This document shows positions 908-21,112 of a stretch of DNA of 64,000 bases, in pieces; position 1 is the first letter of the stretch, and each line of letters starts with the position of its first letter. The stretch spans positions 1-64,000 of the forward strand of contig CAWJTV010000039.1 in the NCBI GenBank assembly GCA_963845755.1, in the 5' to 3' direction. The stretch is from an uncultured Planctomycetota bacterium (GTDB lineage: Bacteria; Planctomycetota; Planctomycetia; Isosphaerales; Isosphaeraceae). The notes under the pieces are model-generated. The model made no database searches, had not been told where the DNA came from, and saw nothing but the letters and a program-made list of their open reading frames with translations. Both the position numbers and the translations under genes were made by a program.

Positions 908-3900
908 TCACCTGGCGCGCCTCGCTTGGAGCCGGCGTGCGACCGGAAAGGCGTCCCAGAGCCGCACCGTGGAGTCGCCCGAGCCGGAGACCAGCGTCTC
1001 GCCGTCCGGGCTGAACGCCAACGAGAAGACGTACGAGGAATGGCCCGGGAGTCGCACCAGCTCCTCGCCCGTGGCCGTGTCCCAGACGCAAATGCTCCGG
1101 TCGTGGCCGCCGGAGGCGATCCGCGTCCCGTCGGGGTGGAAGATGGCCGCGAGCACCTCGAGGCTGTGGCCGGCAAAGGTCCGGACTAAACGGCCTGTCT
1201 CCGAGTCCCAGAGCCGTAGCGTCGGATCCTGGCCGGCGGTCAGGATCTGGCGGCCGTCGGGGCTGAAGACGACCGACTGGATCCGCCCCGTGAAGCCGGA
1301 AAGCTCGGCGAGCAACTCGCCGGAATTCGCGTCGACGATGACGACCTTCGGGTCATCCCCCCCGGCCGCGAGTCGACGGCCGTCGGGGCTGAACGCCACG
1401 ACCCGGGCGGATCGGAGCGGGAGGCGCAGCGGTGCAAGCTCGGCGCGGGTCGCCAGGTCCCAAAAGCGGACACCCGACTCGGTGATTTCGCCGGGAGAGT
1501 TGCCGGCCTCGCTGACACCGTGCCCGGTGAGGGCGCCGAGCCGCTTGCCATCCGGGCTGAACACCAAGCTGTAAACCGAGTCCCTGTGATACATGCCCAG
1601 ATGCTTCAGATGGGGCTCGGATTCCTCGCCGGTCGCGGTGTCCCAAATGCGAATGGTCGAGTCCTCACCCCAGGACGCCAGGCGGGCCCCATCGGGGCTG
1701 AAGGCCAGCGCGCCGAGTGGCCTGGTGTGACCCCTCAGCGTGCGCGCCGGGCTGCCGCCCGCCGCGTCCCACAGGCGGACGGTCGAATCCCAAGACCCCG
1801 AGGCGATCCAGCGCCCGTCCCCGCTGTAGGCGACCGGATAGACGTAGCTGGTGTGACCGCGGAGCACGCGGGTGTCTTCCAGGCTGGTGACGTCCCATAG
1901 CCGGGCGGTGCCATCCCTGGCAGTCGAGGCGATCGTGCGGCCATCTCCGCCGAAGGCCACGCGGGTCACTTGAGCGGAGTGTCCATTGAGGACAAGCAGG
2001 GCCTCGCCGCCGTCGGCGTTCCAGAGCCGGAGCGTGCTGTCGCTGCCCCCCGAGACAAGCCGGCGGCCGTCCGGGCTGAACGCGACGCACGTGACGCCGC
2101 CGACATGGCCATGGAGGGTGCGAAGCAGGCGACCCGTCTCGACTTCCCACACGCGGATGGTCTGGTCGTCCGCGCACGTGGCCAGGCGCAACCCGTCCGG
2201 GCTGTATGCGACGCCGCGGACGATGCCCTGATGGCCCGAGAGGATCGCGGCCGGCTTTCCGGTTTCCGCATCGAAGAGGAAGACCTGTTGGCTCTCCTGG
2301 ACCGCCGCGATGCGAGTGCCGTCGGGGCTGAAATCGAGCGCCAGGAGATAGGAGTCGGGTCCGCCGCAAGTCGCAGTCCTCAGCCCGGTGGCGGTGTCGA
2401 ACACCTCGATCAGCGGCGCCGAGCCGTAGGGTGAGGTCTGCAGCGCGAGCCGTCGGCCGTCTCGGCTCATCGCCGTCACGAAGTCGCAACCGTCATGCCC
2501 GATCGAGTAAGCGGGCGGCAGCGTGATCCGGCTCAGGGTGACGCCGCCCGCGTCGGTGAGCGAGAAGGATGGGGTGTCCACCGATTGGTCGAGGATGAAG
2601 CGCAGTCCCGAGCGCGTTCCGAAGGCGTACAGCGCGTGGCACGGTCGGTCGGCGGCACGGACGGCGAGCGGCTTCCCGGTGACGGCGTCGAGGATCCGGT
2701 ACCCCCGGCCGTCGGCCACGGCGATCCGTTCGCCGGGTGGGCAGAAGGCGACGGATCCAAGCTCGGGCAGTCCGGTGACGACGGCGAGGCTCTGGTCGAG
2801 CCGGCCCTGGAGGTGCCGCCACTCCCAGCCGCGCCGCTCCTCCGGGGCCAACCGGAGCTGACGGCCCGCCTCCCGGACGTCGTTATGGCCCATCGCCGCC
2901 ATGGCCGCCGCCAGGCGTGCCTGGTACGCCTCACCCAGGGCGGCCATCCGCGCGGCCTCGGCTTGAAGGGCACTCGCAGTGGCCCGCTGCGCGTTGCGGT
3001 CGGCGAGCTGCCGCGCCTGTGACTCGCGCACGGCCATGACGCCCGTCGCCGTCGTCCCCAGCGGCGATCGCCGCCAGGATACCGGCCACGCCCCAGACCA
3101 CGGCCTGGTTGCGTCGGGCTAGCTTCACCCAGCGGTCGAGGGTCGAAGGCGGCCGCGCCAGCACCGGCTCGCCGCTCGAGGAACCGGCCGAGGTCGTCGG
3201 CCAGCTCCGCCGCGCTCGGAATAACGCCGCGCCGGCTCCTTCTCCAGGCACTTCAGGCTGATCGTCTCCAGGTCGCGCGGTACGTCCGGCTGGAGCCGCC
3301 GCGGTGGGATCGGGTCTTCGCTCGCCACGATGGCCAGCGTCGATTCGATCGAGCCGGAGACGAACGGCGGTCGTCCCGTGAGCAGCTCATAGAGGATCGC
3401 GCCCAAGGAATAGATATCGACCGCGGGGCCGAGCGCCCGTCCCTTGCCGTCGACCTGCTCCGGCGCCATGTAGCTGGGGGTGCCCAGGATCAGCCCGTGC
3501 TGGGTCAAGCTCACGTCATCAAGGCGCTTGGCCAGGCCGAAATCGGCGAGCTTCGGCGTCCAGATCGAGGTGGAGAGCGAAGCGATCGCACTGCCCATGG
3601 AGATCGGCCTCCCCATCGCGGGCCCGACGCCGTCTGCGTGCCGACCGGCTCGAGCAGGACGTTGGCCGGCTTAAGGTCGCGGTGGAGGATCCCTTGCTGG
3701 TGGGCGCAGGCGATGGCGCGGGCCAGGGTCTCGACCAGCGTGGCGGCCGCCCGGGCCGGCTGCGGCCGGCCCTGGCAGGCCCGGGCCAGCGTGGGGCCGC
3801 TGACCAGCTCCATGGTGAAGTAGGGGCAGCCGTCGCACTGGCCGATGTCGTAGATCTGGATGATATTGGGGTGGTGCAGCCGGGCCACGGCCTCGGCTTC

Positions 3901-4423
3901 GGTGCGGAAGCGGGCCCGGTCGACGGCGCCGGCGCGGGCCCCGGCGTGGATCATCTTCAAGGCGACCAGCCGATTCAAGCCGACCTGCCGCGCCGGTAGA
4001 CCACGCCCATGCCGCCCCGGCTGAGCTCGCCGAGGATCTCGTAGCCGGGAACCGCCGCCGGGGGCGGCGCGACGCCAGCAAGCCAGCCCGGGCTCACGCC
4101 GAGTCGTCACTGGCTTGGCTCGCGATCCCGTCGCGCGACCGCCTTGAGCAGCACATTCCGGCGGCGCCGTCGCCGCCGGCAAGGTGCGGCGCAGCCGCTC
4201 GCAGGAACTCGGGCGCCGGCTCGGGTTCGGCGTCGTCGTTGCCGATCAAGGCCGAATGCGCGCAGGGCGGGACCTCGGCTCGTCAACCGGTCCAGAAGTC
4301 CCTGGCAGGCGGTGCAGACCTCGACGTGCGCCGCCACGTCCTCGCTCGCCGTCCGCGCTCAAGTGTCCCGCCCAGGAACTGCTCCAGTAGCTCACGCCCG
4401 GCACAGCCTCTCATCGCAATCAT
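908..4423 (-). CDS. Membrane Ser/Thr protein kinase with N-terminal zinc-finger anti-sigma (ZAS-like) motif and C-terminal WD40 propellers; frameshifted in this sequence
   Basis: Stitched frames give HVEVCTACQ (HxxxCxxC), [43 protein letters not shown], a hydrophobic segment ([13 protein letters not shown]) and many GH...WD repeats (908-3037). ATG at 4423 lies just after the sigma stop. Confidence 0.9.
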
Positions 4424-4429
4424 CTGCCT

Positions 4430-5048
4430 TTACGTCTCTTGGTCTTCGTCCCACTCGAGAGTCTCGACCTCCTCGCGGAGCAGCCGCTGGATGTTGCTCC
4501 GGGCGGCGTAGACGTTGGCGATCTTCATGTCCAGCCGCCGGGCGACTTCGCGGGGTTCCACGCCGTCGATGGCCGTGAGCCGGAACGCCTCCCAGTTGTG
4601 CGGGGCGACCCGGAGCCGGACCCGGACCATGGCCTTCTCCAGCAGCTCGCGATCAAACTCCTGATCCAGACGCTGAACAAGGTCGTCGCGGGCCGCGATC
4701 GTGAGCAGCCGTTCCCATTGCCGACTGTCGCCGCCCCCGGTCAACACGTGTCGCCGGCTGGTCACCAGGTTGTGCCAGGCGTGGTGGGTGATTGTCTTCA
4801 GCCACGCACGAAAGCTCTGCGCCGGGTCATAGACGAAATCCTTCATCTTGGCCACGAGCAGCACGAGCACCTGCTGCGTCACTTCCTCGGCATCGGCGTC
4901 CTGGAGCTGCCAGTGTCGACACCACTTGTAGATCTGGCGGCCGTAGTGGTCGACGAAGTCGCGCCAGGCCATCTTCGTCGGCGGCGCCCGAACGGTACAA
5001 GCGGCCGAGCAAGCTAGCTCGCGTGGTGAGGTCGCATGCGTAACCCAT
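4430..5048 (-). CDS. ECF sigma-70 factor (planctomycete kinase-associated type); one apparent frameshift near 4975
   Basis: MGYACDLTTRASLLGRL...(D)EMAWRDFVDHYGRQIYKWC...DADAEEVTQQV...SFRAWLKTI...WEAFRLTAIDG...EVARRLDMKIANVYAARSNIQRLL: sigma regions 2 and 4. Confidence 0.9.
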
Positions 5049-5052
5049 CTGT

Positions 5053-5270
5053 AAATACCTGCCCAGAGGTCCGGATCTAAGGGCGCACGGCAACACTTTT
5101 TCCGCACAGCCCTCAGTATCTCAATGGTCATTGCCGATTGCACCGGACACTCCGACATGTTTTTTTTCGGAATATTCGCCGACCGCTACCAGAACCCGGT
5201 CCGCTGGATTGTGATCCGCCGACAACACCTGAAGTGCCCGGTCAGGAGTTGGAAGACCTTGACAGCGAGG
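5053..5270. promoter_or_regulatory. Bidirectional promoter-like cassette, copy 1
   Basis: Minus-strand motif CGCCCTTAGA-N14-CAGGTATTT at 5085-5053. Degenerate plus-strand motif CGCTACCAGA-N14-ATTGTGATC at 5184-5216. Homologous to 6008-6220 and 8990-9200. Confidence 0.7.
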
Positions 5271-5869
5271 TTTTTGGCCGCGGGGCTGGTCGAAAGTCAA
5301 TGGGTCGTCGTGCTTGTTCCGTCGTCGCGCGGACCAGGACGACAGCGCCGACGGCGACGGCGGGAGCAAGCAGGGCGAGACCGCCGGGTTCAGGGACGCT
5401 CGAGAGCGTCCCGACATAGGATCCGGTGATCGCGCCGGTCGTCGGTCCGGTGCTGACTTCCGTCCCGGTCACGGTTATTTCCCCCGTGGCCCCCGCAAAC
5501 AACCCGGTTCCCCCCGTGAACACGATCTCGATTTCAAATGTGCCGGTTCCCATGCCGGTCGTGGTGCCGCTCCCGGAACTGATGCCGAATAATGTCCCCT
5601 CGGAATAGGTCTGCGAGCACGTCCCATTCGAGATGATGATGTCCAGCGGATTGCTGAAGTCGACGGTCGACTCGCGATTGCATTGCAAACGAACCCAGGA
5701 GCGTGTCGTCTCCCACGCCGGTAAAGGTCTGGAGAAAGACGGGCGGCGAAATGGGCGTGAGGGTGGTGTCTCCTGATAGATCGCCTGAGATCGAGCCGGC
5801 GCCTGCCGGCGCGGCGAGGCCCCCCAGAACAACGAGGGCCACGAGAGGTAGAGTAATCGAGCGTCTCAT
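5242..5869 (-). CDS. PEP-CTERM sorting-domain protein (frameshift near 5675; exact stop uncertain)
   Basis: Signal peptide MRRSITLPLVALVVLGGLAAPAGA, Thr/Gly-rich body, VPEPGGLALLAPAVAVGAVVLVR. Confidence 0.85.
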
Positions 5870-6007
5870 TGCGAGGTGTCCTTCCGATATCTGGGGGCCG
5901 TGATCGCCTGACGCGCACGGTGGGAATCTTCATCGGCGGCGCCCGACCGAGCCAACCGGCCCAACACGTTGGCTCGCGTCGTCAGGTCGCTCGATAGCCT
6001 CATCAGT

Positions 6008-6220
6008 GATTACAAGTCGAGAAGCCTAGATCTAAGGGCGTGGGATGACTTTTTTCGGCGGGCCGCTATTCTCCAAATGGTTATTGCCATCGGCAGCGAA
6101 CAGCAGACAGCTTTTTGCGGGAATTTCGCCCGCCGCCCTTAGAACCAAGTCACCGGGCTTGTAATCCTTCCAGAGTACCCGAGGCAGCCGGTCAGGGCGG
6201 TGGACAGCCTTGAGAGCAAC
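6008..6220. promoter_or_regulatory. Bidirectional promoter-like cassette, copy 2
   Basis: CGCCCTTAGA-N14-CTTGTAATC on the minus strand (6040-6008) and on the plus strand (6134-6166), between divergent PEP-CTERM genes. Confidence 0.8.
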
Positions 6221-6339
6221 CCGGCGCCGACCGGTTTCTTCGGGACCCTGCGCAGCGAGAGCTCGCGCCGGATCGGCGGGGGTTGATCCCACCGAAACGA
6301 CCGGCAGCCAGTGCACCTTACACAACGGAGATTCACACC

Positions 6340-6921
6340 GTGAGATCGATCTTGAAGTTTTGCCTCGGACTCGTGGTGATCGGGCTAGTGGGTGAGGAAT
6401 TCGGCGCGGGCCAGGCTTACGCCGGGCTGACCGGATACACGGTGACCGGCGGTTTCGCCTTTAATGACACTGGCGGCCCGCTCGATTCGGGCACAATCTT
6501 TACGCCCAGCGGTTCGACGACCGTTCCTGGCACGATTGACGTTTTTGGGGGGCTAGCCACATTCGCCGCCAACTCATTTCAACTTTCCCTTACATCGGGA
6601 ACGAACTTCTCGGCTATCCCTTTCGTCGGGTTCATTTTCGAGACGGAAGCATCCGCCCCGGCTTTCACGGGAGTTACGATTCTGTCGACGCACGACATTC
6701 TGTCGGCGACAACCATAGCTCCGGACTTCACCGCCGCGGACGTGTCATCTAACGCGCACGAAGTGACGCTGAACTTTTCCGGTTTGTTTGCGGCCGGCCC
6801 AGGGTCGGTTGATATCGGATTCACCACACTACCCGAGCCTCCCTCAATCACCATGGGACTGACCGGGCTGGCGATGGCCGGCGGGTTCGGTTTGTCACGG
6901 CGACTTCGTGCGGCCAGCTGA
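6340..6921 (+). CDS. PEP-CTERM sorting-domain protein
   Basis: GTG start with GGAG RBS, signal peptide ending AYA, C-terminal LPEPPSITMGLTGLAMAGGFGLSRRLR. Confidence 0.85.
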   Translation: MRSILKFCLGLVVIGLVGEEFGAGQAYAGLTGYTVTGGFAFNDTGGPLDSGTIFTPSGSTTVPGTIDVFGGLATFAANSFQLSLTSGTNFSAIPFVGFIFETEASAPAFTGVTILSTHDILSATTIAPDFTAADVSSNAHEVTLNFSGLFAAGPGSVDIGFTTLPEPPSITMGLTGLAMAGGFGLSRRLRAAS

Positions 6922-7059
6922 GCTTCCTGCCCGACTTGGTCTCTGGGCGACTGCGCGGGAAGGCGCCTGACGCGGTCGCGCCTGACGCAGCTCATGAAAC
7001 GAACGAAGAATCCGCGAGTCGTTCCTGGCCCGTTCCCTTACTTCAAGAGGAGTCTACTG

Positions 7060-7872
7060 ATGAGGTCCTACTCGCCACTCCAACGGTTCTGGATTTCCCT
7101 CGTCATCGTCAGCACAGGTTTCGCGACCACGCCGGCCCATGGCGGTTGGTCGTACATCTACGTCACGAACGCCAGCGGCACGAAGGTCGCCGAGGTCGCG
7201 GAGCAGATCTTTTCCACGGGCACGCCCCTCGGTTATGACTACGAATACCGGGTTCTGAATCTCAGTCCGTCCGAAGCACCCATCATGGGATTTCTGGGCT
7301 ACGTGGGCAACCAGGCTGGCGCGGTGATACAGACAAGCTTCACGAACCCTCCCCTCATCCCTCCCCCCAGTTACGGAACTGTTTTCGGCTCCGTCGGCAA
7401 TCCAACGGTTCCGTTTCTCACAGCCGAGGCCAACACGTACTCCCCCGTAGGTTGGAACTTCACTGAGTACGACCAACGCCCGAGCGCCGTGACGGGTTAC
7501 GGGGTCCTTTGGACCACGCTCGTGCAGCCTCTTCCCTATGACCGCTGGACGGAATTTGACCTCTACAGCACCAATGGTCCAGTTAAGGGTGGGGGCGCCG
7601 TGGGTCCGTTCGCCGGGCCTGGTGGAATCGGTGTCGATATCTTTGGTGGCCTCTATCTGACTAATTTCACCGCGAGCGTGCCGATTTCGAGCAGCCAGGA
7701 CATGGCAAATCCATTTCCCGGCTACTCGGCATACAGTGTTCCGGAGCCCGGCTCAGTTGTCCTGCTAGCGAGCGGTGCGATGATCCTCGGTTACTGGGTG
7801 CGATGGCGCAGTCGGTCGATGTGCGGGGCCGCCGCCAGGACGAGAGAGCCGACGCGCCGGGCTGCTGATTAG
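7060..7872 (+). CDS. PEP-CTERM sorting-domain protein
   Basis: GAGGAG RBS before ATG 7060, signal peptide ending AHG, VPEPGSVVLLASGAMILGYWVRWRSR. Confidence 0.9.
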   Translation: MRSYSPLQRFWISLVIVSTGFATTPAHGGWSYIYVTNASGTKVAEVAEQIFSTGTPLGYDYEYRVLNLSPSEAPIMGFLGYVGNQAGAVIQTSFTNPPLIPPPSYGTVFGSVGNPTVPFLTAEANTYSPVGWNFTEYDQRPSAVTGYGVLWTTLVQPLPYDRWTEFDLYSTNGPVKGGGAVGPFAGPGGIGVDIFGGLYLTNFTASVPISSSQDMANPFPGYSAYSVPEPGSVVLLASGAMILGYWVRWRSRSMCGAAARTREPTRRAAD

Positions 7873-7903
7873 TTGGCGTCAGCGCGGATTAATTGGTGTC
7901 AGC
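7867..7903. repeat. 17-bp imperfect direct repeat (AATTGGTGTCAG core), REP-like
   Basis: gattagttggcgtcagc (7867-7883) and gattaattggtgtcagc (7887-7903). Confidence 0.7.
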
Positions 7904-7976
7904 ATATTTGTGTAATTGTTGATATTCAGCTCGGTCGCCGTGCTGGACTTAAGTGGGTTGGCGGTGAAGTTGTAAT

Positions 7977-8474
7977 CTGATCACCTTCAGCGGACCGGGG
8001 GTGATCGGCGGCTCGGTGCCCGACGGCAACTACACCCTGATCACCTTGTACAAGAAGGTGAATGTCGTCTCCGGCCCGCCGATCACGGCCAACGACGTCA
8101 ACACGTTCTTCCGCCTTTTCGGCGACGTCAACGGCGATGGCGTCGTGAACTCCCTGGACAAGGTCTACCTCTTGCAGGCGGAGGCCAACCCAGCGTCACC
8201 TTATGCACCTGACTTCGAGCATGACGGCAAGGACGTGATCGATAAGACCGACATTGCCCAGTTCAACAAACGCTACAAGGGCTCAGTGGATCCGCCCGCG
8301 AAGGCCCCGGCCAAGTTCCCTGGTCGGAAGGTGCAGCATCATGTGGCGGCACATCACGCAGCGACGACGGCCCGACCGGCGGGCGCAACCCCCGTGAACA
8401 CCGTGGATCGGTCGCGGGTCTCCGGGATCCTTCCGCTGCCCCTTCACCGCATCCGACACGACCGGGATTCGTGA
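7977..8474 (+). pseudogene. Orphan C-terminal fragment (dockerin-like/EF-hand domain) of a giant surface-protein paralog
   Basis: Near-identical to 15833-~16260 (ITFSGPGVIGGSVPDGNYTL...FGDVNGDGVVN...DGKDVIDKTD), with no N-terminal part. Confidence 0.85.
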
Positions 8475-8619
8475 GGGTCAATCCCCCGGACGGACGATCG
8501 TCGCAAAGTCCTCGGGCGCTGCCCGGTCAACGGCATGATGCCCTGACTCGGGGAGGGTTTTTGCCCTCGATCTCACCGTGACCGTCTCCGCCGAGAACAG
8601 GCCGCAATCGAGTCGTCGG

Positions 8620-8950
8620 TTAGCCAGCCGTCGCCTCGCGCCGTTGCCCGCGGACCACAACGATCGCGCCGACGGCCACGGCGGGAGCGAGCAAGGCGAG
8701 AGTACAAGGTTCGGGGACGACCGAAAGCGACCCGACATAGGACCCGGTTATCGACTCCGTCGTCGAGCTGGTGCTGGTGATCGTTCCCGTGAACGTCGCG
8801 CCCCGTGGCCCCGGCGAACAACCCAGTTCCACCCGTGATCACGAAGTCGATCGTAAATGTGCGGGTTCCCATGCCGGTCGTGGTGCCGCTCCCGGAACTG
8901 GTGCCGACTAATGTCCCCTCGGAAAAGGTCTCCGAGAACGTCCCATTCGA
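8620..8950 (-). pseudogene. 5'-deleted paralog of the 5242-5869 PEP-CTERM gene
   Basis: GTTTGMGTRTFTIDFVITGGTGLFAGATG...VVPEPCTLALLAPAVAVGAIVVVRGQRR. The start codon and signal peptide are missing because of a deletion at about 8951. Confidence 0.85.
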
Positions 8951-8989
8951 GGCTCGCGTCGTCAGGTCGCACCATGGCCCCCCATTAGT

Positions 8990-9200
8990 GATTACAAGTC
9001 AAGTGACCAAGATCTAAGGGCGCGGAATATTTTTTTCGGCGGGCCGCTATCCTGCAAATGGATATTGCCATCGCCACGGGACAGCCGACAGTTTTTTTGG
9101 GAATTTCGTCCACCTCCCTTAGAACCGCACCCGTCGCCGTGTAATCTCTCCAGAGCAGTCGAGACATCCGGTTAGAGCGGTCGAGAGTCTTGACTGCAAC
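8990..9200. promoter_or_regulatory. Bidirectional promoter-like cassette, copy 3
   Basis: Minus-strand CGCCCTTAGA-N14-CTTGTAATC (9022-8990) and plus-strand CTCCCTTAGA-N14-CGTGTAATC (9114-9146). Confidence 0.8.
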
Positions 9201-9460
9201 CCAGAGCCAGCCGGTCTTTCGGCACTCTCGACCTCGAACGCGGCGCTCCATACCGTCGCCCCGCCCCATGCAAGTTCGCCGGCCCATTCGCCGACCACGT
9301 CGGCCAGGGGAGAGCGACGTCCCGAAGGCTTGACCCACGACATTCGCTGCGCCGCCTGTGCACCGGCGCAATCGTCCGTGGTCCGCTCCCACCGGCTTCG
9401 CGGCGGTTGGTCCGGCGGGCACGACCGGCGCCTTCGCGCCTCCACCAAGGGAGATTGTCC

Positions 9461-10663
9461 ATGAATTCTCAGACTGCCACCGAAAACCTGGATTCCGCGA
9501 ACCCTGCGACCGCCGCTGAACCGGAGGCTTCGTCGAACCCCGAGGCCGCCACCGGAGCCGAGGCTTCGCCTCCCGCACCGCTCCGCAGCGTGCACACCGC
9601 GAATTTCCCCGCGATCCTGGAGCAGTTAGGCATTTCGGTCCTCGTCACCACCTACCAGGCGGGCAAGCTGGTGATGCTCCGGCCCGACGGCGGCGGCTCA
9701 ACACGCACTTCCGCGGCTTCAACAAGCCGATGGGCCTGGCCGTGCGACGGCGACCGGCTGGCCGTCGGCACCGGCGCTGGAGATCTGGGAGTACCACAAC
9801 GTCCCGGCCGTCGCCCGCCGGCTGGAGCCCGCCGGCCGGCACGACGCCTGCTTCCTGCCGCGTCGCGGCCATTGCACCGGCGACATCCAGATCCACGAGA
9901 TGGCCTGGGGCGCGCGAGCGATCTCTGGTTCGTCAACACGCGCTTCTCCTGCCTGTGCACGCTCGACCGGATTCACAGCTTCGTGCCGCGCTGGCGGCCG
10001 CCGTTCATCACCGCGCTGGCCCCCGAGGACCGCTGCCACCTGAACGGCCTGTGCCTGGTCGAGGGCCGGCCCGCGTACGTCACCGCCCTGGGCGAGACCG
10101 ACACGCAGGGCGGCTGGCGGGCCAACAAGAAGGACGGCGGCGTCCTTGATCGAGGTGGAGACCGGCCGGGTGCTGCTGCGCGGCCTGTCGATGCCGCACT
10201 CGCCGCGCTGGCACGACGGCCGCCTCTGGCTGCTGGAATCGGGCACCGGCGGCATCGGCTACGTCGACCCCTGGACGCGGCGCTACGAGCCGGATCGCCG
10301 AGCTGCCCGGCTTCACGCGCGGCCTCGATTTCGCCGGCAACCTGGCCTTCGTCGGCCTGTCGCAGGTGCGCGAGACGCGCCATCTTCAGCGGCATCCCCA
10401 TCGCCGAGCGGCCGGTCGAGGAACGCCGCTGCGGCGTCTGGGTGGTGGACATCACCACCGGCGCGACGGTGGCCTTCGTCAAGTTCGAGGACGCGGTGCA
10501 GGAGATCTTCGCCGTGCAGGTGCTGCCCGGCATCCGCTACCCCGACGCTGATCAACGACAACAACGCCCCTGATCGCCGACTCGTTCGTCCTGCCCGACC
10601 AGGCGCTGGGCACTCGTGCCGGCGCCGCTGCGTTTCCCTGCCCGTCAAACGATCGCATGCTGA
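9461..10663 (+). CDS. TIGR03032 (DUF4915)-family protein, frameshifted in this sequence
   Basis: Recognised motifs LRSVHTANFPAIL...TTYQAGKL, NTHFRGFNKPMGLA, TGDIQIHEMAWG, FVNTRFSCLCTL, SFVPRWRPPF, EDRCHLNGL, GLSMPHSPRWH, LPGFTRGL, FVGLSQVRE, VQEIFAVQVLPG. Confidence 0.85.
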
Positions 10664-10703: not shown

Positions 10704-13700
10704 ATGACTGCCTCGAACCAGTTTCCCAAGCGATTCGGACGCAAAGACGCTTCGTTTCTCCGGCCGGGCGCACGGTAGCATCGCGCCGGTCACAGGCCCG
10801 GCGAACGCGCCCGTCCTCGACCTGCTCGAAGAGCGAACGATGCTATCGACGACCATCACGGTCAACACACTCGCCGATCAGATCGATCAGGCCGGGAGCC
10901 CGACGGTCTCCCTGCGCGACGCGATCGCAGGCGAACGTCAACTGCGGTGCCACGATCGTGTTCGCCCCCGGTCTGGCCAGCCAGAACGCCGGTTTCGGCG
11001 CGGGCGTCATCGGCCTGACGAGCGTCGGCGACAGCACCGCCGGCCCTTCCGCCTTGGGAGTGAGCAGCAACGTCCGCATCGTCGGCCCGTCCACGGGCCC
11101 GGGTATCACCGTCGAGCGGCCTGCGACGGCGCCAGGGATCAACGTTCCCAACATGCGGCTGTTTTACGTCGCCCCTACGGGTAACCTGACCCTGGACAAC
11201 CTCACCCTGCAAGGGGGGATCGCCTTGGGGGGTAACGGCGCGGGTGACGGCGGCGGCGGCGCCGGCCTGGGCGGAGCCGTTTTCAATCAAGGCGGCCTGA
11301 ACATTCAGAACAGCCTTTTGACCGGCAACACGGCCCGCGGCGGCGCGGGTTACGGCGCCGGTAACGAAGGCGGCGGCGGCGGCGGCGGCGGTATGGGTGG
11401 CAACGGCACAAACGGCCCCGGCCGGGGAACGACGACCCCACCTTACTTTGGCTACGGCGGCGGTCCCAACGCTGGCAACCCCAACGGCGGCCCCGGCTAC
11501 TCGCACGGCTCCTACGTGGGCATCAATGGCGGCTTCGGCGGCGGCGGTTCCGCCGGTACGACCTTCGGCGCCAAGGGCGGCTTCGGCGGCGGCGGCGGCG
11601 GCAGCGGCAGCAGCGGCAGCGGCGGCTACGTGAGTGGGTATGCCGTCGGCGGCGACGGAGGCTTCGGCGGCGGCGGCGCCGGCGGCCGAACAGACCCCAA
11701 CGGCGGCATGGCCGGCTTCTCGGAGTTCGGCGGCGGCGAAGGCACCACGGGCGTATTACTGACTGCCATTGGCTCCGCCGTCGGCGGCGGCGGCGCGGGC
11801 TTTGGCGGCACCATCTTTAACGACCAGACAAGCGTCACGATCACCAACACCACCATCACCGGCAACCTGGCCGCCGCCGGTCCCAGCCCCGTCCATGCCG
11901 GCATGGGCGCCGGAGCCGGTATCTTTAACTATAACGGCACCGTCGCCGTCAACTACAGCACCCTCGTCCAGAACTACGCCGCCCAGGGCGGCGCCGACAT
12001 CTACAACCTTGCCGACGGCGTGGGCAGCGAAGCCGTTCTCGTTCTCAACGACAGCATCCTGGCCGACAGCCAAGGCTCCAGCGAAGACTTGCACTCGGCC
12101 AGCAACAATTCCGGCATCCCCGGGGTGCTGGGCACGAACAACCTGATCATGTCCTTGGCGGGAGCACCACCACCAGCCCATTCCTCATCAGCACCGCCAA
12201 CCCCATGCTCGGCCCGCTCCAGAACAACGGCGGCCCAACGCTAGACCATGGCCCCGCTGGTTGGCAGTCCCGTCATCAACCAGGGGGCCAACTCCGCGGC
12301 CCTGGGAGTGACGACCGATGCCCGCGGCCTGCCACGCATTTACGAGTACCCTAACGTCGCCAATTCCCCCAACGGTGACGGCAGCGACCTCGGGCGCCGT
12401 CGAGCTAGAGCCCCCGTCGATCCGGGTCGTGGCCGGCTCGGGCCAGAGCCAACCTCAACACGGCGGTGGCCAAGCCCTTGCAGGTCCAAGTTTTCGACGA
12501 CGGCGAACCGGCGGCCGGCGAGACGGTAATCTTCGCGGCCCCGTTGGGCGTTTTGATCAACCCCAATCTGCCCGGAGGGTCATTCCCCACGGGGCTTACG
12601 GCCAGCGTGGCCACCAACACCAACGGCATCGCCATCGCGCCGGCCTTAACCGCCAACGGCAACGCCGGCTCGTACTCCGTCACCGCCGCAGCCGCGGTCA
12701 ACAACACTGACGTCGGCCCGGTCTCCTTCACAGAGACGAACACCGTTCCCCCTACGGTCGTCACCGGCGGGCCCTACACGATTGCCCAAGGCCAATCGCT
12801 CTCACTCAACGCCTCGGGCTCGACCGACCCGTACGGCAAGACCCTGAGCTACTCGTGGACGATCAACGGCCACGCCAATGCCGCCACCGGCATCATGGCC
12901 ACGCTTACCTGGGCCCAGATCCAGGCCCTTGGCCTCGACATTGGAGTCGGGACCTTCCCAAACGTCATCAGCGTCCAGGTCTCCGACGGTGTGATGCAGC
13001 CCTACAACGTCTCGACGTCGCTGACGATCACGGACACTCCGCCAACGCCCGCGATCGCGGGCCTGCCCTCGGGAAATGCCGCCGCGGGTGCGGCCCTGAC
13101 GCTTACCGGTTCCGTCACCGACGTGAGCACGGCCGAGACCGCGGCCGGGTTTGACGATCTCTGGGAGGTCAGCGCCGGCCCGGGCCAGACGGTCATCGCC
13201 GGTCAGCAGCTCAACCTCAATGGCCAAGATCCGTTGCCACTCCCGTCCGGCCTGATTGCCAACGTCGCCTCGCTGACCGTCCAAGTGACCTTCCAGACCA
13301 CTGCCGACGGAGTGATCTTCGGCTACCAGAACCAGCCGGCCGGCACCACGCCGAATGCCTACATGCCGGCCTTGTACGTCGGCAGCAATGGCCTACTCTA
13401 CGCCGAGATCTTCGACGGCAGCTTCCGGCAGATGGTCAGCAGCACCCCGGTCAACGACGGCCAGCAGCACACCGCGGAACTGATCGAGACCGGCAGCGCC
13501 CAGTCGCTGTACCTGGATGGCGCCCTGGTCGCCACGCTCGCCGGCGTCCCGAACCCGAACTTTACGTACGACCAGCTCGGCACCGGCTACACTGTCGGCT
13601 ATCCGAATACTCCCGGCGGCTACTTCCCCTTCGTCGGCACGATCGACAAAGTACAGATCACCACGGGGAGTATGCTGACGGGATCAGTCTCGTTCCCAAC

Positions 13701-16321
13701 GAGCAGCAACAATCAGCTCATCCTGACCCCGCCGGTGCCGGGAACTTACTCAATCGGGCTTCAGTCCACGGACGAGAACGGCGGCACGGGCCTAACCAGC
13801 CGGAGCCTCGTCGCCGTGACACCGACCACCACGCCGGCGATCGGCGGCCTGCCCGCAAGAAGCCCAGAGGGTACGCCGATCACCCTGACGGCCTCTGCCA
13901 CCGATCTGGTGCCCTCGCTTCTTGCCGCCGGCATCAACTACGTCTGGTCCGTGACCGGAGGCCCGGGACAAGACGTGATCGCCGGCCAAGGTTTGAATCT
14001 CAACGGCAGCAATCCCGTGTCGTTGCCCAACGGCCTGATCTCGGACGCCACGCCGCTCGCCGTGAACGTGACGTTCCAGACAACTGCCGACGGAGTGATC
14101 TTCGGCTACCAGAACCAGCCGGCCGGCACCACGCCGAATGCCTACATGCCGGCCTTGTACGTCGGCAGCAATGGCCTACTCTACGCCGAGATCTTCGACG
14201 GCAGCTTCCGGCAGATGGTCAGCAGCACCACGGTCAACGACGGCAAGGTGCACACTGCGGAATTGATCGAGACGGGCAGCCCCAGTCGTTATACCTGGAT
14301 GGCGCCCTGGTCGCCACGCTCGCCGGCGTCCCGAACCCGAACTTTACATACGACCAGCTCGGCACCGGCTACACTTTCGGCTATCCGAATACTAATGGCG
14401 GCTACTTCCCCTTCGTCGGCACGATCGACAAGGTACAGATCACCACGGGGAGTCGGCTGACGGGATCCGTCTCGTTCCCAACGAGCAGCAACAATCAGCT
14501 CACCTTCACGCCGCCTGACGTGGGAACCTACACGATCGGCCTCTCGGCCACAGACCTCTATGGCGGCACGGGCGTCACGACGGCGTCGCTCACCGCGACC
14601 GACGTCCCTCCCACGCCGACGATCACCGGCCTGCCCACGAGCAGTCCCGAGGGCACGGCGATCACGCTGACGGCGTCCGCCACCGACATCAGCCCATTGA
14701 CGACGGCCGCCGGCTTCGACTACGTCTGGAGCGTGAACGCGGGCACGGGACAGCAACTCGTCGCCGGCCAAAACCTGACCTTCAACGGCTCGAACCCGAT
14801 CGCCCTGCCCACCGGCCTCATCAACGGCGCCACCAGCCTCACGGTGGACGTCACGTTCCAGACCACCGCGGGCGGTGTGATCCTCGGCTACCAGAACCGG
14901 GCCCTCGGCACCACGCCGACGAATTACGTGCCGGCCCTCTACGTCGGCACCAACGGCCTGCTCTATGCCGAGATCTGGAACGGAGCCGTCCACCCGATCA
15001 CGAGCACGACCAAGGTCAACGACGGCCAGCAGCACACCGCGGTGTTCACCCTCTCCGGATCGACCGAGACCCTCACGCTCGATGGCAAGCTGGTCGGGAC
15101 GCTTACGGGCGCGCCCAGACGCTGGACATGACCTTCGACGAGCTGGGCAGCGGCGAGACCGCGGGCTGGCCGGCGGGAACCGGGGGCTTCGATCCGTTCG
15201 CCGGCACACTCGCCAAGGTGCAGGTCACATCCGGCAATCTGCTGACGGGATCGGTGTCGTTCCCGACCAGCGGCGGCAACCAGCTCACCTTCACGCCGCC
15301 TGACGCCGGGACCGACACGATCGGCCTCTCGGCCACGGACGTCTATGGCCTCACGGGCGTCAAGACGGCGTCGCTCACCGAGACCGAAATCCCGGTGACC
15401 GTCAATGCGGGGGCTAACGCGGTGGTCCCGCAGGCCACGGCGTTCACTCAAACCGGCTCGTTCACCGATGCCCCCGGAGATGGACCGTGGTCGGCGACAG
15501 TCAACTACGGTGACGGCACCGGCAAGCAGTCGCTGGCGGTGAACGCCAACATGACCTTCACGCTCAGCCACACCTTCGCCAATGCGGGCACGTTCACGAC
15601 GACGGTGACGGTGACCAACCAGGATGGTCTCACCGGCACGGCCACGTTCAATGTGACCGTCAGCGGCTTCACGGTCAACGACGGCAGCTCGCAGCAGTCG
15701 ATGGTCAGGAGCCTGACCTACGTCTTCCCCTACCCGACCCAGGTCGAGCCGGACGCCTTCGTGCTGCTGCGCGACGGCAAGCCCAGCCACGTCCACCTGA
15801 ACATCGCGCCGCAGCCCGACGGGATGACCTACCTGATCACGTTCAGCGGACCGGGGGTGATCGGCGGCTCGGTGCCCGACGGCAACTACACGCTGATCAC
15901 CTTGTACAACAAGGTCAACGTCCTCTCGGGCCCGCCGATCACGGCCAACGACGTCAACACGTTCGTCCGCCTTTTCGGTGACGTCAACGGCGATGGAGTT
16001 GTGAACGCCGCGGACAAGGCCTACCTCTTGCAGGCCGAGGCGAACCCAGCGTCACCTTATGCACCTGACTTCGAGTACGACGGCAAGGACGTGATCGATA
16101 AAACCGACATCGCCCAGTTCAACAAGCGATACAAGGGCCCGATGGACCCGCCCGCGAAGGCCCCTGCCAAGTTCCCAGGACGGAAGGTGCGGCATCATGT
16201 CGCGGCACATTACGCAGCGACGACGGCCCGACCGGCGGGCGCGATCGCGGTGAAGGCCGCGGGTGGGGCGGGGATCGTCCGCAGCAACCTGCTGCCTCCT
16301 GGCAAGGTGCGTCATCGTTGA
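10704..16321 (+). CDS. Giant secreted surface protein SP1 (planctomycete extracellular/LEPR-XLL-type leader, CSLREA-like, Gly-rich, choice-of-anchor-Q-like, Ig/PKD, 3 LamG-like, dockerin-like C-terminus); several frameshifts
   Basis: AGGAGG RBS and ATG 10704; RPVLDLLEERTMLS; VNTLADQID...SLRDAI; GGFGGGG repeats; LGPLQNNGGPT...DARGLPR...DLGAVE; three VTFQTT...LYVG.NGLLYAE...VNDG..H units; VNYGDG PKD; FGDVNGDGVVN. Confidence 0.85.
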
Positions 16322-16491: not shown

Positions 16492-19400
16492 ATGAGCCTA
16501 CAATCCCGGATCAACGGACTCTTCGGTCAAAAGTCCCCATTGCCCCGGCGCCGCCGGGTCGGTGCGGCCGGCGCACGGATCGCGGCGGCGAACGCGCCCT
16601 GTCCTCGACCTGCTCGAGGGACGGACGATGCTATCCACGACCATCACGGTCAACACCCTCGTCGATCAGATCGATCAGGCCGGGAGCCCGACGGTCTCCC
16701 TGCGCGACGCGATCAACGAGTCGAACCAGGACGGCGGTGCCACCATCGAGTTCGCCGCCGGTCTGGCCAGCCAGAACGCCGGTTTCGGCCAGGGCGTCAT
16801 CGGCCTGACGAGCGTCGGCGACGGCACCGCCGGCCCGTCCGCCCTGGGAGTGAGCAGTAACGTCAGCATCGTCGGGCCGTCCACGGGCCCGGGTATCACC
16901 GTCGAACGGCCTGCGACGGCTCCGGGGATCAACGTCCCCAATATGCGTCTGTTTTACGTGGCTTCCACGGGCGATCTGACTCTGGACAACCTCACGCTGG
17001 AAGGCGGGGTCGCCCTGGGCGGCAACGGCGCCGGTGATGGCGGCGGCGGCGCCGGCCTGGGCGGCGCCATCTTCAATCAAGGGTTTTTGGACATCCAGAA
17101 CAGCCTCTTGACCGGCAACACGGCCCGCGGCGGCGCGGCCTACGGCGGCTTCGGCGGCGGCGGCGGCGGTATGGGAGGCAATGGCACACACGGAGTCGGC
17201 GAGGGCGAGAACCATGGCTACGGCGGCGGTCCCAACGCGGGCAACCCGAACGGCGCCCCGGGCTCCTCGAACGGCTCCTACGTGGGTATCAATGGCGGTT
17301 TCGGCGGCGGCGGCTCCGACGGTTTTGTCTTCGGCGCCAAGGGCGGTTTCGGCGGCGGCGGCGGCGGCAGCTATGGCGGCGGTTTCAGTCCTTATGGCAA
17401 CGGCGGTGACGGCGGCTTCGGCGGCGGCGGCGGCGGCGGTCAAACGAACCCCGGAGGCGAGGGCATGGCCGGCGTCTCGGAGTTCGGCGGCGGCGAGGGC
17501 ACCACGATAACTGGTGGCGCACTCGCCCTCGCCTACGGCGGCGGCGGCGCGGGCTTTGGCGGCGCCATCTTCAACGACCAGACAAGCGTCACCATCACCA
17601 ACACCACCATCACCGGCAACCTGGCCGCCGCCGGCCCCAGCCCCGTCCATGACGGCATGGGCGCCGGCACGGCATCTTCAACTACAACGGCACGGTCGCC
17701 GTTATCTACAGCACCTTCGCCCAGAACTACGCCGCCCAGGGCGGCGCCGACATCTACAACCTCGCCGACGGCGTGGGCGGCGACGCCGTTCTCGTTCTCA
17801 ACGACAGCATCCTGGCCGACAGCCAAGGCTCCAGCGAAGACTTGCACTCGGCCGGCAACAATACCGGCATCCCCGGGGTGCTGGGCACGAACAACCTGAT
17901 CATGTCCGCGACGGGCGCCACCACCACCAGCCCATTCCTCATCAGCAGCGCCAACCCCATGCTCGGCCCGCTCCAGAACAACGGCGGCCCGACGCCGACC
18001 ATGGCCCCGCTGGTTGGCAGTCCCGTCATCGACCAGGGGGCGAATTCCACGGCGCTGGGAGTGACGACCGATGCCCGCGGCCTGCCACGCATTTACGAGT
18101 ATCCTAACGTCGCCAATGCCCCCAACGGCGACGGCAGCGACCTGGGCGCCGTCGAGCTAGAGCCCCCGTCGATCCGGGTCGTCGCCGGCTCGGGCCAGAG
18201 CACAACCTCAACACGGCGCTGGCACAGCCCTTGCAGGTCGAGGTCCTCGACGACGGTGAACCGGCACCCGGCGTGATCGTCACGTTCGCAGCCGCGTTGT
18301 CGTTCAATCCCCTTACAGGCAGCCCTGAGCCGACCGCCTCGTTTGCCGGCGGGATCGGCGGTGCCGAGGCGACCACCAACGCCCAAGGGATCGCGACGGC
18401 ACCCTTCCTCACGGCTAACGGCGTCGCGGGCTCCTATCTCGTTGGCGCCGACGCCCTTGTCGCCGGGGCAGATGTCGGCCCTGTCGCCTTCTCGGAAACC
18501 AACACCGTTCCTCCGACGGTCGTCACCGGCGGGCCATACACGATTGCCCAAGGCCAATCGCTCTCACTCAACGCCTCGGGCTCGACCGACCCGTACGGCA
18601 AGACCCTGACCTACTCGTGGACGATCAACGGCCACACGAACGCGGCCACCGGCGTCAACCCGACGCTCACCTGGAACCAGCTCGAGCATCTGGGCCTCGA
18701 CGTCGGAGCCGGGACCTTCCCGAACGTCATCAGCCTCCAGGTCGCCGATGGCGTCGTCCCGCCCTACACCGTCTCGACGTCGCTCACGATCAACGACACC
18801 CCGCCCGAGCCCGCGATCCTCAACCTGCCGTTGGGAAATCTCCCCGTGGGTTCGCCCCTGACACTCACGGCGTCCGGCACCGACGTCAGCTCCGCCGAGA
18901 TCGCCGCCGGACTCGACGACCTCTTCGAAGTCGGCGCCGGCACCGGTCAGACGGTCGTCGCCGGCCAGCAGCTTAACTTCGACGGCAAGAACCCGGTGCC
19001 CTTGCCCTCGGGCCTGATCGCCAACGCCGCCTCGCTGACCGTCGTCGTGACCTTCCAGACCACCTCCGACGGAGTGATCCTCGGCTACCAGAACCAGCCG
19101 GCCGGCACTACGCCGAATGGATACATGCCGGCCTTGTACGTCGGCAGCAACGGCCTACTCTACGCCGAGATCTTCGACGGCACCTTCCGGCAGATGGTCA
19201 GCAGCACCCCGGTCAACGACGGCCAGCAGCACACTGCGGAACTGATCGAGACCGGCACTGCCCAGTCGCTCTATCTCGATGGGACGCTGGTCGGGACACT
19301 CAGTGGCACGCCCAACCCGCTGAACATGACCTACGACCGCTCGGCACGGGCTACACGCTCGGCTACCCCAACGCCCCCGCCGGCTATTTTCCCTTCACCG

Positions 19401-21112
19401 GCACGATCGACCAGGTGCAGATCACCGAGGGAAGTCTGCTGTCCGGGTCGGTCTCATTCCCGGCAAATAGCAACTATGCGATCACCTTCACACCGCCCGC
19501 CCCGGGGACCGACACCATCGGCCTGTCGGCCACGGACTTTCAGGGCGGCACGGGCGTCACGACGGCGTCGCTCGCCGTGACCGACGTCCCTCCCTCGCCG
19601 ACGATCGCCGGCCTGCCCACGAGCAGCCTCGCGGGCACGGCGATCGCGCTGACGGGGTCCGCCACCGACGTCAGCCCATCCACGACGGCCGCCGGATTCG
19701 ACTACCTCTGGAGCGTGAGCGCGGGCACGGGACAGCAGGCCGTCGCCGGCCAGGACCTCACTTTCAACGGCTCGAACCCGATCGCCCTGCCCTCCGGCTT
19801 TATCAATGGCGCCACCAGCCTCACGGTGGACGTCACCTTCGAGACTACCGCGGGCGGTGTGATCCTCGGCTACCAGAACCGTGCCCTTGGCACCAGGCCG
19901 ACGAATTACGTTCCGGCCCTCTACGTCGGCACCAACGGCCTGCTCTACGCCGAGATCTGGAACGGGGCCGTCCAACCGATCACGAGCACGACCAAGGTCA
20001 ACGACGGCCAGCAGCACACCGCGGTGTTCACCCTCTCCGGATCGACCGAAACCCTCACTCTCGATGGTAACTTGGTAGGGACGCGCACGGGCTCGCCCCA
20101 AGCGCTGGACATGACCTTCGACGAGCTGGGTAGCGGCGAGACCGCATTCTGGCCGGGGGGGACCGGCGGCTTCGATCCGTTCGTCGGTACCCTCGCCAAG
20201 GTGCAGGTCACATCCGGCACGCTGCTGACGAGCTCGGTGACGTTCCCGACCAGCGGTGGCAATCAGGTGACCTTCACGCCCCCCGCCGCCGGGACCGACA
20301 CGATCGGCCTGTCGGCCACCGACGTCTATGGCAGCACGGGTGTGACCGCGAGCAATCCCCTCACCGTCACGGCGATCACGTTCAACCTGCCCACCGGCAC
20401 CGTCCAGGCCGTCCAGGGCCAGGCCTTCAGCCTCACGGGCAGCGTCACGGATCCCACGGGCGACTCGCCGTATTTCTTGAGCGCGAATTACGGCGACGGC
20501 ACCATCAACCGGCTGGGGAGCTATGCGGTCACCTCCTTCACGGCCAGCCATGCCTATGCCGACGCCGGCGACTACACCGTGACCCTGACGTTCAACGACG
20601 CCGCGGGCCACACCGCGCAGGCCGCGTTCCAGGTGATCGTCTCGGGCTTCACCGTCAACGACGGCAGTCCCAAGCCATCGATGGTCACGAGCCTGACCTA
20701 CACCTTCACGAACCCCGTGCAGCTCGAACCGGGCGCATTCGAGCTGCTGCGCGATGGTCGTCCCACCCGAATCCACCTGGCGCTCGACGAACAGCCCGAC
20801 CAGCAGACCTTCCTGATCGCGTTCAGCGGGCCGGGTGTCGTCAACGGATCGCTGCCCGACGGATCCTACACGCTGATCACCCGCCACAAGAAGGTGAAGG
20901 TTCTGTCCGGCCCCGCGATGACCCGGAACGACGTCAACACGTTCGTCCGCCGCCCGGGTGATGCGGTCGGCGACGACAAGGGCAGGATCAACAAGACCGA
21001 CATCACCGACTTCAACAAGCGGTACACCGGCCGGATGGATCCGCCCAATAGGGCGCCGGCCAAGTTCCGCGGTCGGACCGAGCATCATCAGGGTGTGGTC
21101 CGTCCGGCCTGA
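16492..21112 (+). CDS. Giant secreted surface protein SP2, tandem paralog of SP1 with 2 LamG-like units; several frameshifts
   Basis: AGGAG RBS, MSLQSRINGLFGQKS...RRRTRPVLDLLEGRTMLS. Same domain order as SP1 with long near-identical DNA blocks. Confidence 0.85.

What the first reader, a model, noticed from the sequence alone, without database searches (positions are those of the whole stretch)
5053..9200. Triplicated ~200-bp cassette with back-to-back bipartite motifs CGCCCTTAGA-N14-CTTGTAATC: candidate portable bidirectional ECF promoter
Seen: six motif instances with an invariant 14-nt spacer of unrelated sequence. Minus strand: 5085-5053, 6040-6008, 9022-8990. Plus strand: 5184-5216 (degenerate), 6134-6166, 9114-9146. 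Each pair faces outward, 91-98 nt apart, with A/T-rich tracts just upstream. Five instances point at a gene or gene relic (sigma, three PEP-CTERM genes including the 5'-deleted one, TIGR03032). The most decayed instance is the one facing the 3' end of a convergent gene. Conserved boxes around a free spacer (17 nt from CTTAGA to GTAAT) fit -35/-10 geometry rather than an RNA stem. Inference: this is the promoter of the adjacent ECF, duplicated as a unit to recruit genes. I do not recognise this consensus.
Basis: partly seen in the sequence, partly recalled or inferred. Interest (0 to 1): 0.85.

Follow-up and report, generated by a model that had tools for sequence, protein, structure and literature searches.

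The report
Back-to-back promoters of a kinase-linked sigma
A short two-part DNA signal, present six times around one gene cluster of a planctomycete, is very likely the promoter read by the neighbouring kinase-controlled sigma factor; it gives a testable promoter for a sigma group whose promoter was listed as not conserved, and one copy sits on top of the sigma gene's own ribosome-binding site and start codon.

Summary
All six motif copies are real (five strong, one decayed), and the strong form occurs nowhere else in the 14.3-Mb genome. The motif is very likely the -35/-10 promoter of the adjacent ECF62-like sigma. A motif of the same geometry emerged de novo from 91 homologous loci and held in 19/29 held-out loci. 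Where a locus has both a self-facing and an outward site, the variable -35 bases match (0.86 vs 0.42 permuted), spacers do not (0.33 vs 0.33), and the -35 type follows the sigma clade. The 'portable cassette' idea is not supported: the back-to-back layout is ancestral and family-wide, and the three copies are local duplications of the sigma's upstream region carrying a 5' stub of the gene. New: the self site overlaps the sigma's Shine-Dalgarno sequence, with the start codon 9-10 nt from the -10 G (32/41 loci). It makes either a leaderless sigma mRNA or, slightly more likely, a transcript lacking the start codon. No expression data. Two earlier scan notes on other DNA describe promoters of kinase-linked sigmas (not checked).

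The parts
908..4414 (-). Ser/Thr kinase gene, position +1 of the sigma: N-terminal zinc finger, kinase, one membrane helix, WD40 propellers; frameshifted in this assembly
   Evidence: Pkinase and WD40 in window ORFs; zf-HC2 + Pkinase in G085/G061 orthologues; hydrophobic helix 2.33 in G085, partial in window
4430..5048 (-). ECF sigma factor (ECF62-like), start ATG 5048-5046; one frameshift near 4970, likely an assembly error
   Evidence: Sigma70_r2, TIGR02937 below cut-offs of named subfamilies; intact 202-aa orthologue in G085; a short-read contig lacks one base at 4970
5053..5085 (-). Copy 1 left ('self') site: -35 box, 14 nt, -10 GTA (G at 5058); overlaps an SD-like CAGGT (5061-5057); predicted start 5048 (A, leaderless) or 5046 (G of the start codon)
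   Evidence: (29.2 bits); orthologous sites in G085, G061, G055, G528
5097..5167 (.). Copy 1 core: T-runs 5097-5101 and 5160-5167 (likely UP elements) and a conserved central element 5123-5135 of unknown role
   Evidence: family A/T peak about 37-39 nt upstream of the -10 G
5184..5216 (+). Copy 1 right site, decayed; faces the 3' end of PEP-CTERM gene A
   Evidence: 2.0 bits; lost in G085, near intact in G061, intact and facing TIGR03032 in G055
5242..5869 (-). PEP-CTERM-type secreted protein gene A (signal peptide, VPEP + hydrophobic tail by eye; no Pfam hit); frameshift at 5672, likely an assembly error
5926..6003 (-). 5' stub of the sigma CDS (about 26 codons), now the likely 5' leader of gene A
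   Evidence: family D3, 72% over 115 nt
6008..6040 (-). Copy 2 left site, perfect; predicted start 6003 or 6001; points at gene A
   Evidence: 33.4 bits; boxes kept, spacer changed in G085 and G061
6134..6166 (+). Copy 2 right site, perfect; predicted start 6172; points at PEP-CTERM genes B and C
   Evidence: (32.6 bits)
6340..7872 (+). PEP-CTERM-type genes B (6340-6921) and C (7060-7872)
   Evidence: PF07589 16.3 and 20.0 bits, both below the 20.7 cut-off
7977..8474 (+). Orphan 3' end of the large secreted-protein gene (90% copy of 15833-16281): scar of a tandem duplication
8620..8985 (-). 5'-deleted copy A' of gene A (8620-8950) joined to a short sigma stub (8951-8985); ATG out of frame with it
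   Evidence: 81% over 305 nt; contig over 8910-9059 shows no indel in the G-run
8990..9022 (-). Copy 3 left site, perfect; points at the relic A'
   Evidence: 33.4 bits
9114..9146 (+). Copy 3 right site; predicted start 9152; points at TIGR03032 and the large secreted-protein genes (ancestral target)
   Evidence: (28.8 bits)
9461..10607 (+). TIGR03032/DUF4915 gene, frameshifted in this assembly
   Evidence: adjacent to the sigma's promoter pair in G055 (81%)

Best explanation
The motif is very likely the -35/-10 promoter recognised by the adjacent kinase-linked ECF sigma factor, and it occurs three times in back-to-back pairs because the sigma gene's upstream region was copied in local duplications. 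Shown: the sites, their restriction to this locus, their family-wide geometry and co-change with the sigma, the sigma stub in each extra copy and the duplication scars. Inferred: the zinc-finger/kinase/WD40 protein activates the sigma by phosphorylation; RNA polymerase with this sigma then fires the outward promoter (ancestrally TIGR03032 and large secreted proteins) and, after duplication, the promoters of PEP-CTERM genes A, B and C, giving a small local regulon of secreted or surface proteins. The self-facing site overlaps the sigma's own ribosome-binding site; I judge it slightly more likely (about 55:40) that it starts on the G of the start codon or just inside the gene, so that it would transcribe the kinase without making more sigma, than that it makes a leaderless sigma mRNA.
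For: De novo EM on the divergent strand of 91 homologous loci (window clade left out) gave the same two-block geometry, log-likelihood 341 vs 121 and 115 for shuffles. Held-out loci from another family: outward site 19/29 at the exact gap (0-8 at shifted gaps, 0/29 on the sense-strand control), self site 19/29. In 27 loci with both sites, -35 columns not used by the caller agree 0.86 within a locus vs 0.42 permuted; spacers 0.33 vs 0.33; with one locus per cluster (12 or 17 clusters) 0.85-0.87 vs 0.37-0.39, p 0.003 in every draw. The -35 type follows the sigma clade, and paralogues in one genome carry different types (G061, G085, G064). The top residue for -35 is the Arg176-equivalent and for -33 the Ser172-equivalent, pairs listed in PMC7776599 Table S1; all 86 sigmas have Phe/Tyr at the Arg171-equivalent, which in that paper's mutagenesis prefers G at -31 (0.86), and 85/86 sites have G there. 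Outward sites show a pyrimidine-purine peak 11 nt after the -10 G (34/75 vs 13 reverse) and an A/T peak at the distal UP position, as described for ECF promoters. A 74%-identical sigma in another family has the window-type -35 on both sites. Duplication. Self site: start codon at index 9-10 in 32/41, at 6-8 in 4/41, TTG/GTG in 6/41, SD pairing in 83% vs 29% at outward sites; paired test 11:1 and 16:1 clusters.
Against: No transcript, binding or reporter data. The residue-base register was chosen after reading the published table, its spacer is one base longer than the commonest RpoE spacing, the site caller itself favours G at -31, and the Thr169-equivalent/-34 pair (highest MI, 0.70) is not in Table S1. 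Tree-independent pair tests had only 1-2 supported pairs and were not significant. My first Tyr/Phe -> AGA/AGG rule failed in the held-out family. About 40% of training loci show no outward site (51/90 have one) and 79 of 120 show no self site. G085 has a window-type site beside a paralogue of another -35 type. Perfect left sites face deleted genes in G000 copy 3 and G061. For the self site, the RpoE -35-to-start rule (26/27 nt; long spacer goes with short discriminator) puts +1 at index 10-11, which fits a leaderless start at 5048.
Confidence: 0.87

Rival explanations
1. Same promoter, but the self site is an ordinary positive autoregulatory promoter giving a leaderless sigma-kinase mRNA that starts at the A of ATG (5048); the SD serves only a basal upstream transcript. 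This is an alternative for the self site only.
For: Start codon fixed at index 9-11 in 36/41; RpoE -35-to-+1 distances allow index 9-12; leaderless ECF promoters are known, 0.2-5% by clade; ATG kept in all four stub copies.
Against: TTG start in the G061 orthologue and 2 more loci, start codon at index 6-8 in 4 loci, no clear ATG enrichment (35/41 vs 61/79), outward sites peak at index 11 rather than 9-10.
Confidence: 0.4
2. The sites are read by another factor (a different ECF, the housekeeping sigma or a transcription factor) and merely lie near the sigma gene.
For: The -10 region resembles a housekeeping -10 in 5 of 6 bases; a window-type site lies beside a paralogue of another type in G085.
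Against: No sigma-70-type promoter called in 4900-9600; paralogues in one genome have different, clade-specific -35 boxes; co-change concentrates on recognition-helix positions; exact motif only in the three genomes with the closest orthologue.
Confidence: 0.07
3. A portable or mobile cassette (MITE-like or recombinase-moved) that spreads promoters.
For: Three copies 67-78% alike in different gene contexts; the gene right of copy 2 differs between G000, G085 and G061.
Against: No copy elsewhere in G000 or away from the sigma in 120 family genomes, none in viral contigs; copies carry a sigma stub and lie within larger duplicated blocks; no extra terminal repeats.
Confidence: 0.04
4. A structured RNA or DNA hairpin in which the two boxes pair.
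For: Copy 2 folds with z -3.2.
Against: Copy 3 z -0.85; left and right spacers agree at only 4-6 of 14 positions and family-wide at chance level; no Rfam match.
Confidence: 0.02

Closest known systems
ECF62 (Casas-Pastor et al. 2021, PMC7826278, supplementary text read)
   Same: Planctomycete ECF with a kinase at +1 that has an N-terminal zinc finger, one membrane helix and WD40 repeats; no anti-sigma seen.
   Different: That text says predicted promoter motifs are not conserved; here a shared A-G-[AG]-T ... GTA frame with clade-specific upstream -35 bases is found, mostly on the divergent strand.
Local ECF regulators and the ECF residue-base code (Todor et al. 2020, PMC7776599; parts 1-2, section 10, passages, SI appendix and first part of Dataset S3 read)
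   Same: Few linked targets, near-consensus two-block promoter, distal UP element, recognition-helix residues that track -35 bases.
   Different: Main text never mentions planctomycetes; Datasets S1/S2 were too large to read, so a motif for this family may be in them. A self site lying on the sigma's own SD and start codon is not described in the parts read.
EcfP/PknT (Vibrio) and EcfK/PknS (Xanthomonas), group ECF43 (review PMC8999054, passages)
   Same: Sigma encoded next to a Ser/Thr kinase, activation by phosphorylation expected; some family members face a type VI secretion gene (ImpA).
   Different: ECF43 lacks the acidic DAED motif; this sigma keeps DAEE followed by a Thr that is invariant in 12 aligned homologues, so the activation chemistry may differ.
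Streptomyces coelicolor sigma-E acting as a direct repressor (PMC10771440, abstract and passages)
   Same: An ECF holoenzyme site can block an overlapping or upstream transcript.
   Different: There the targets are other genes; here the candidate blocking site covers the sigma's own translation start. Untested.

Membership tests
ECF62 | Planctomycete ECF sigma | tested here: met
   TIGR02937 and Sigma70_r2; a same-family genome is titled Isosphaeraceae
ECF62 | Protein kinase at position +1 | tested here: met
   starts 15 nt after the sigma stop
ECF62 | Kinase with one membrane helix, WD40 repeats, N-terminal zinc finger (s1/s2) | tested here: met
   (zinc finger and helix best seen in the G085/G061 orthologues; zf-HC2 21.1 and 22.7 bits vs cut-off 22.2)
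ECF62 | Best score to the ECF62 group HMM rather than ECF59/61/217 | not testable with these tools
   ECF Hub models not available; the label rests on gene context
ECF promoter | Two conserved blocks at a fixed spacing with a free spacer | tested here: met
ECF promoter | -35 bases track sigma-4 recognition-helix residues | tested here: inconclusive
   MI and clade pattern agree with Table S1 for -35, -33, -31, but tree-independent pairs were too few and the register was chosen post hoc
ECF promoter | UP element and pyrimidine-purine start signature | tested here: met
   75 outward sites: A/T 70-77% at index -40 to -36 peak, YR 34 vs RY 13 at index 11; sites are related, so the effective number is smaller
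ECF promoter | Sigma-dependent transcription start | not testable with these tools
   needs 5' end mapping or a reporter
MITE / mobile cassette | Dispersed copies, terminal inverted repeats, target-site duplication | tested here: not met
ECF43-type phospho-activation | Loss of the acidic DAED motif in region 2.2 | tested here: not met
   DAEE retained (criterion)

The most novel reading that the evidence does not exclude
In a large family of kinase-activated planctomycete sigmas, each paralogue carries its own private -35 code on a back-to-back promoter pair, and the self-facing promoter is built into the sigma's ribosome-binding site so that transcription starts inside the start codon: the active sigma turns on its secreted-protein neighbours and its kinase while throttling its own synthesis, a built-in brake where ECFs normally have positive feedback. 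Local duplication of this region with a gene stub recruits new surface-protein genes into the regulon.
Probability: 0.33. Interest if true: 0.75.

Novelty: new variant of a known kind. Interest (0 to 1): 0.5.

Why it matters
Planctomycetes carry many kinase-linked ECF sigmas with no known promoter. A shared frame with clade-specific -35 bases explains why group-wide searches reported no conserved motif, names the likely targets (surface and secreted proteins, pilin-like DUF1559, type VI secretion), and gives base-level predictions for reporter tests, including a natural set of possibly orthogonal sigma-promoter pairs. The window itself is a readable record of how a local regulon grows by duplicating the regulator's upstream region. 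If the self site starts inside the start codon, it would be an unusual negative-feedback design for an ECF.

Tried and rejected
RNA hairpin or MITE: rejected. Genome-wide regulon: not found; beyond the five sites, matrix hits were at shifted-spacer background, and one 1-mismatch hit on C11 equals the control level. Tyr/Phe at the Arg171-equivalent deciding AGA vs AGG: seen, failed in held-out loci (21:13 vs 15:36, MI 0.06). Tree-independent pair tests: too few pairs. In-frame stub-gene fusion in copy 3 or translational coupling in copy 2: frames differ between genomes and the contig shows no indel in the G-run. Sigma-70 scan: none. Phylum sample of 400 other genomes gave no match at E<=1e-52; the metagenome scan gave one locus. 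Sequencing runs: no RNA holder listed; two DNA runs gave short scattered contigs only. A direct printed alignment to E. coli RpoE was not obtained; the helix register rests on printed alignments to two other ECFs plus the recalled RpoE sequence context. Jogler et al. 2012 is not held and Wiegand et al. 2020 did not appear in searches, so neither was read. Literature searches found no paper giving this motif or a self site on the RBS; the ECF classification supplement was cut and its logos and tables were not seen. Earlier-findings look-ups by sequence, place and a second word set were empty.
Full report
Observation. Four match the 19-base consensus with at most 3 mismatches against 0 in 100 shuffles. 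In the whole assembly (14.3 Mb, 64% G+C, 49 contigs) the only hits with at most 2 mismatches are four window sites, and no other spacer from 10 to 18 gives any. A matrix made from 12 sites of four other genomes ranks five window sites first (28.8-33.4 bits); the next hit (21.4) is at shifted-spacer level and the sixth site scores 2.0. So five strong sites and one decayed one.

Anatomy. Left of copy 1 lie an ECF sigma and a kinase-WD40 gene. The sigma starts at ATG 5048: the G085 orthologue is an intact 202-residue gene from that codon, and 49 of the 65 closest database homologues have the same N-terminal length. Every leftward site is followed 4 nt later by ATG and sigma-like codons; in copies 2 and 3 these are stubs. 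The repeated unit is thus the sigma gene's upstream region plus its first codons. In G055 the layout is kinase <- sigma <- pair -> TIGR03032 -> large secreted proteins, with one pair only: the ancestral state. G085 and G061 have two pairs with PEP-CTERM gene A between them. G000 has a further duplication: 5328-5632 and 5971-6249 recur at 8649-8951 and 8951-9228, and 7977-8424 is a 90% copy of the 3' end of the large gene at 15833-16281. That is tandem duplication followed by deletion and gene gain (inference), not transposition. The cassette DNA was found in 3 of 121 family genomes, always at this sigma; the exact 14-base pattern likewise (these are the three best sigma matches); none in viral contigs. 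Many of these genomes are incomplete.

Is it this sigma's promoter? I collected 96 distinct homologous loci (not all 104 matches were fetched). EM on the strand facing away from the sigma, using 91 loci without the window clade, returned a two-block motif with the window's geometry (AG, 18 nt, GTA), far above shuffles, and it scored the window's self site 16.5 bits. In training loci 51/90 had an outward site at the exact gap (19 at plus or minus 1, 3-11 elsewhere). In 29 held-out loci from the family of G528 (titled Gemmataceae; 29 of 39 matches), 19 had an outward site, 19 a self site, and 0 a site in the sense-strand control. In the 27 of 125 loci where a caller blind to the upstream -35 columns found both sites, those columns agreed 0.86 within loci vs 0.42 permuted, while spacers agreed 0.33 vs 0.33; with one locus per cluster the result held (12 or 17 clusters, p 0.003). 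On a FastTree tree the -35 type follows the sigma clade (CTTAGA, GGAGA, GCTAGA, GCCAGA, TGTCAGG, GGTAGG, GTTAGG, TATAGG), and single genomes hold paralogues with different types, which a shared host regulator cannot explain. A 74%-identical sigma from the other family has the window's -35 on both sites.

Agreement with the known ECF code. Todor et al. (PMC7776599) pair Arg176 with -35, Ser172 with -34/-33 and Arg171 with -31, and show Phe or Tyr at 171 prefers G at -31 (0.86). In 86 sigma-site pairs the most informative helix residue for -35 is the Arg176-equivalent (0.64) and for -33 the Ser172-equivalent (0.59); all have Phe/Tyr at 171 and 85 have G at -31. Caveats: I chose this register after reading the table, it implies a spacer one base longer than RpoE's commonest, the caller favours that G, the highest value (Thr169-equivalent with -34, 0.70) is not a listed pair, the helix numbering rests on alignments to other ECFs and recall, and tree-independent tests had too few pairs. 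Outward sites also show an A/T peak at the distal UP position and a pyrimidine-purine peak 11 nt after the -10 G, both expected of ECF promoters. This predicts starts at 6172 and 9152.

Targets. Of 68 ORFs called downstream of outward sites, 53 plus three from the window clade were scanned: DUF1559 pilin-like 4, RTX-repeat 3, DUF4915 2, ImpA 2, second ECF 2, zinc-finger/kinase 5, a few others, and 24 with no family, many with a planctomycete extracellular-type N-terminus by eye. In the window the targets are PEP-CTERM-type genes (tail motif below Pfam cut-off or seen by eye) and the TIGR03032 cluster. No distant regulon was found. This fits a local ECF regulator of surface or secreted proteins.

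The self site. In 41 of 120 loci with a callable start codon a site lies directly before the sigma start: first base of the codon 9-10 nt from the -10 G in 32, 11 in 4, 6-8 in 4, 14 in 1. These sites pair with the anti-Shine-Dalgarno in 83% of cases, like sigma genes without a self site (82%) and unlike outward sites (29%); paired by cluster 11:1 and 16:1. Six have TTG or GTG, including TTG in the G061 orthologue. In the window clade the SD-like CAGGT is kept before all four true sigma genes (G000, G085, G061, G055) and replaced in all four stub copies. If the start follows the outward sites (index 11-12), it falls on the G of the start codon and the RNA cannot make full-length sigma; if it follows the RpoE -35 distance rule (index 10-11), the window's RNA is leaderless. 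I favour the first slightly (55:40). Precedent for an ECF holoenzyme acting as a block exists (PMC10771440); untranslated sigma sequence ahead of the kinase could cause polarity (general knowledge), which argues against it.

Comparison. Gene context matches ECF62 s1/s2 (PMC7826278 supplementary text), whose promoters are described as not conserved; the group HMM could not be tested. It works like a local, kinase-linked ECF system; unlike ECF43 it keeps the acidic region-2.2 motif. Searches found no paper with this motif, but Jogler 2012, Wiegand 2020, ECF Hub logos and Todor Datasets S1/S2 were not seen. From PMC8103513, PMC7671368 and PMC4598750 I saw only search listings; from PMC1312014 and PMC8999054 passages. 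Two earlier notes of this scan on other genomes report promoters of kinase-linked sigmas, one filed near ECF62 and one with the same divergent layout but another motif; I did not test them and my reading was set before seeing them.

Rivals. Hairpin or MITE: copy 2 folds (z -3.2) only because the boxes are inverted; copy 3 does not (z -0.85); spacers do not compensate (4-6 of 14); no Rfam match. Another regulator: no sigma-70 promoter called and the clade-specific code argues against it.

Verdict. Real feature; very likely the promoter pair of the adjacent ECF62-like sigma (0.87), triplicated by local duplication. An ordinary kind of switch with a promoter not found in the literature searched, a paralogue-specific -35 code, and one unresolved oddity at the sigma's own start codon. 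Interest 0.5.

Noticed in passing
window 5123-5135, 6076-6088, 9057-9069: A central element (core AAT.G.CATTG) is conserved between the two promoters in all eight cassette copies from four genomes; role unknown, possibly a transcription-factor site or part of a housekeeping promoter.
   Followed up: partly
window 10800-16300 and 16560-21100; 21340-21444: Tandem copies (84% at the 5' ends) of a very large secreted-protein gene and a second 3' fragment of TIGR03032: the locus is a duplication hot spot.
   Followed up: partly
window 8620-8985; L037 9630-9970: PEP-CTERM gene A lost its 5' part independently in G000 copy 3 and in G061, with different breakpoints, yet the promoter boxes facing it are near perfect in both.
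   Followed up: partly
L048 3157-3189 (G085): A window-type site before an FHA-domain gene beside a second sigma-kinase-WD40 pair whose own sites are of the GGAGA type: possible cross-regulation between paralogues or a moved copy.
   Followed up: no
L014 (G000:C33 near 269,500): The closest paralogue in the same genome (52%) has an outward site ending in the same bases as window copy 2, with a different -35: possible cross-talk.
   Followed up: partly
L132, L140; L009, L056, L062, L147; L083, L090; L102, L103, L105, L110, L112: Outward sites of other family members point at type VI secretion ImpA, DUF1559 pilin-like genes, a second ECF, or a zinc-finger kinase placed divergently (56 ORFs scanned, many without a family).
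   Followed up: partly
window 4970, 5672, 6306, 9030: Short-read contigs lack one base at each place, so several frameshifts of this assembly are likely sequencing errors (low depth, one contig each).
   Followed up: partly
window 5053-5085 and orthologues: Self sites of this clade are more degenerate at -35 than the other sites (G085, G061, G055 and one contig each differ), while their spacers are well conserved.
   Followed up: partly
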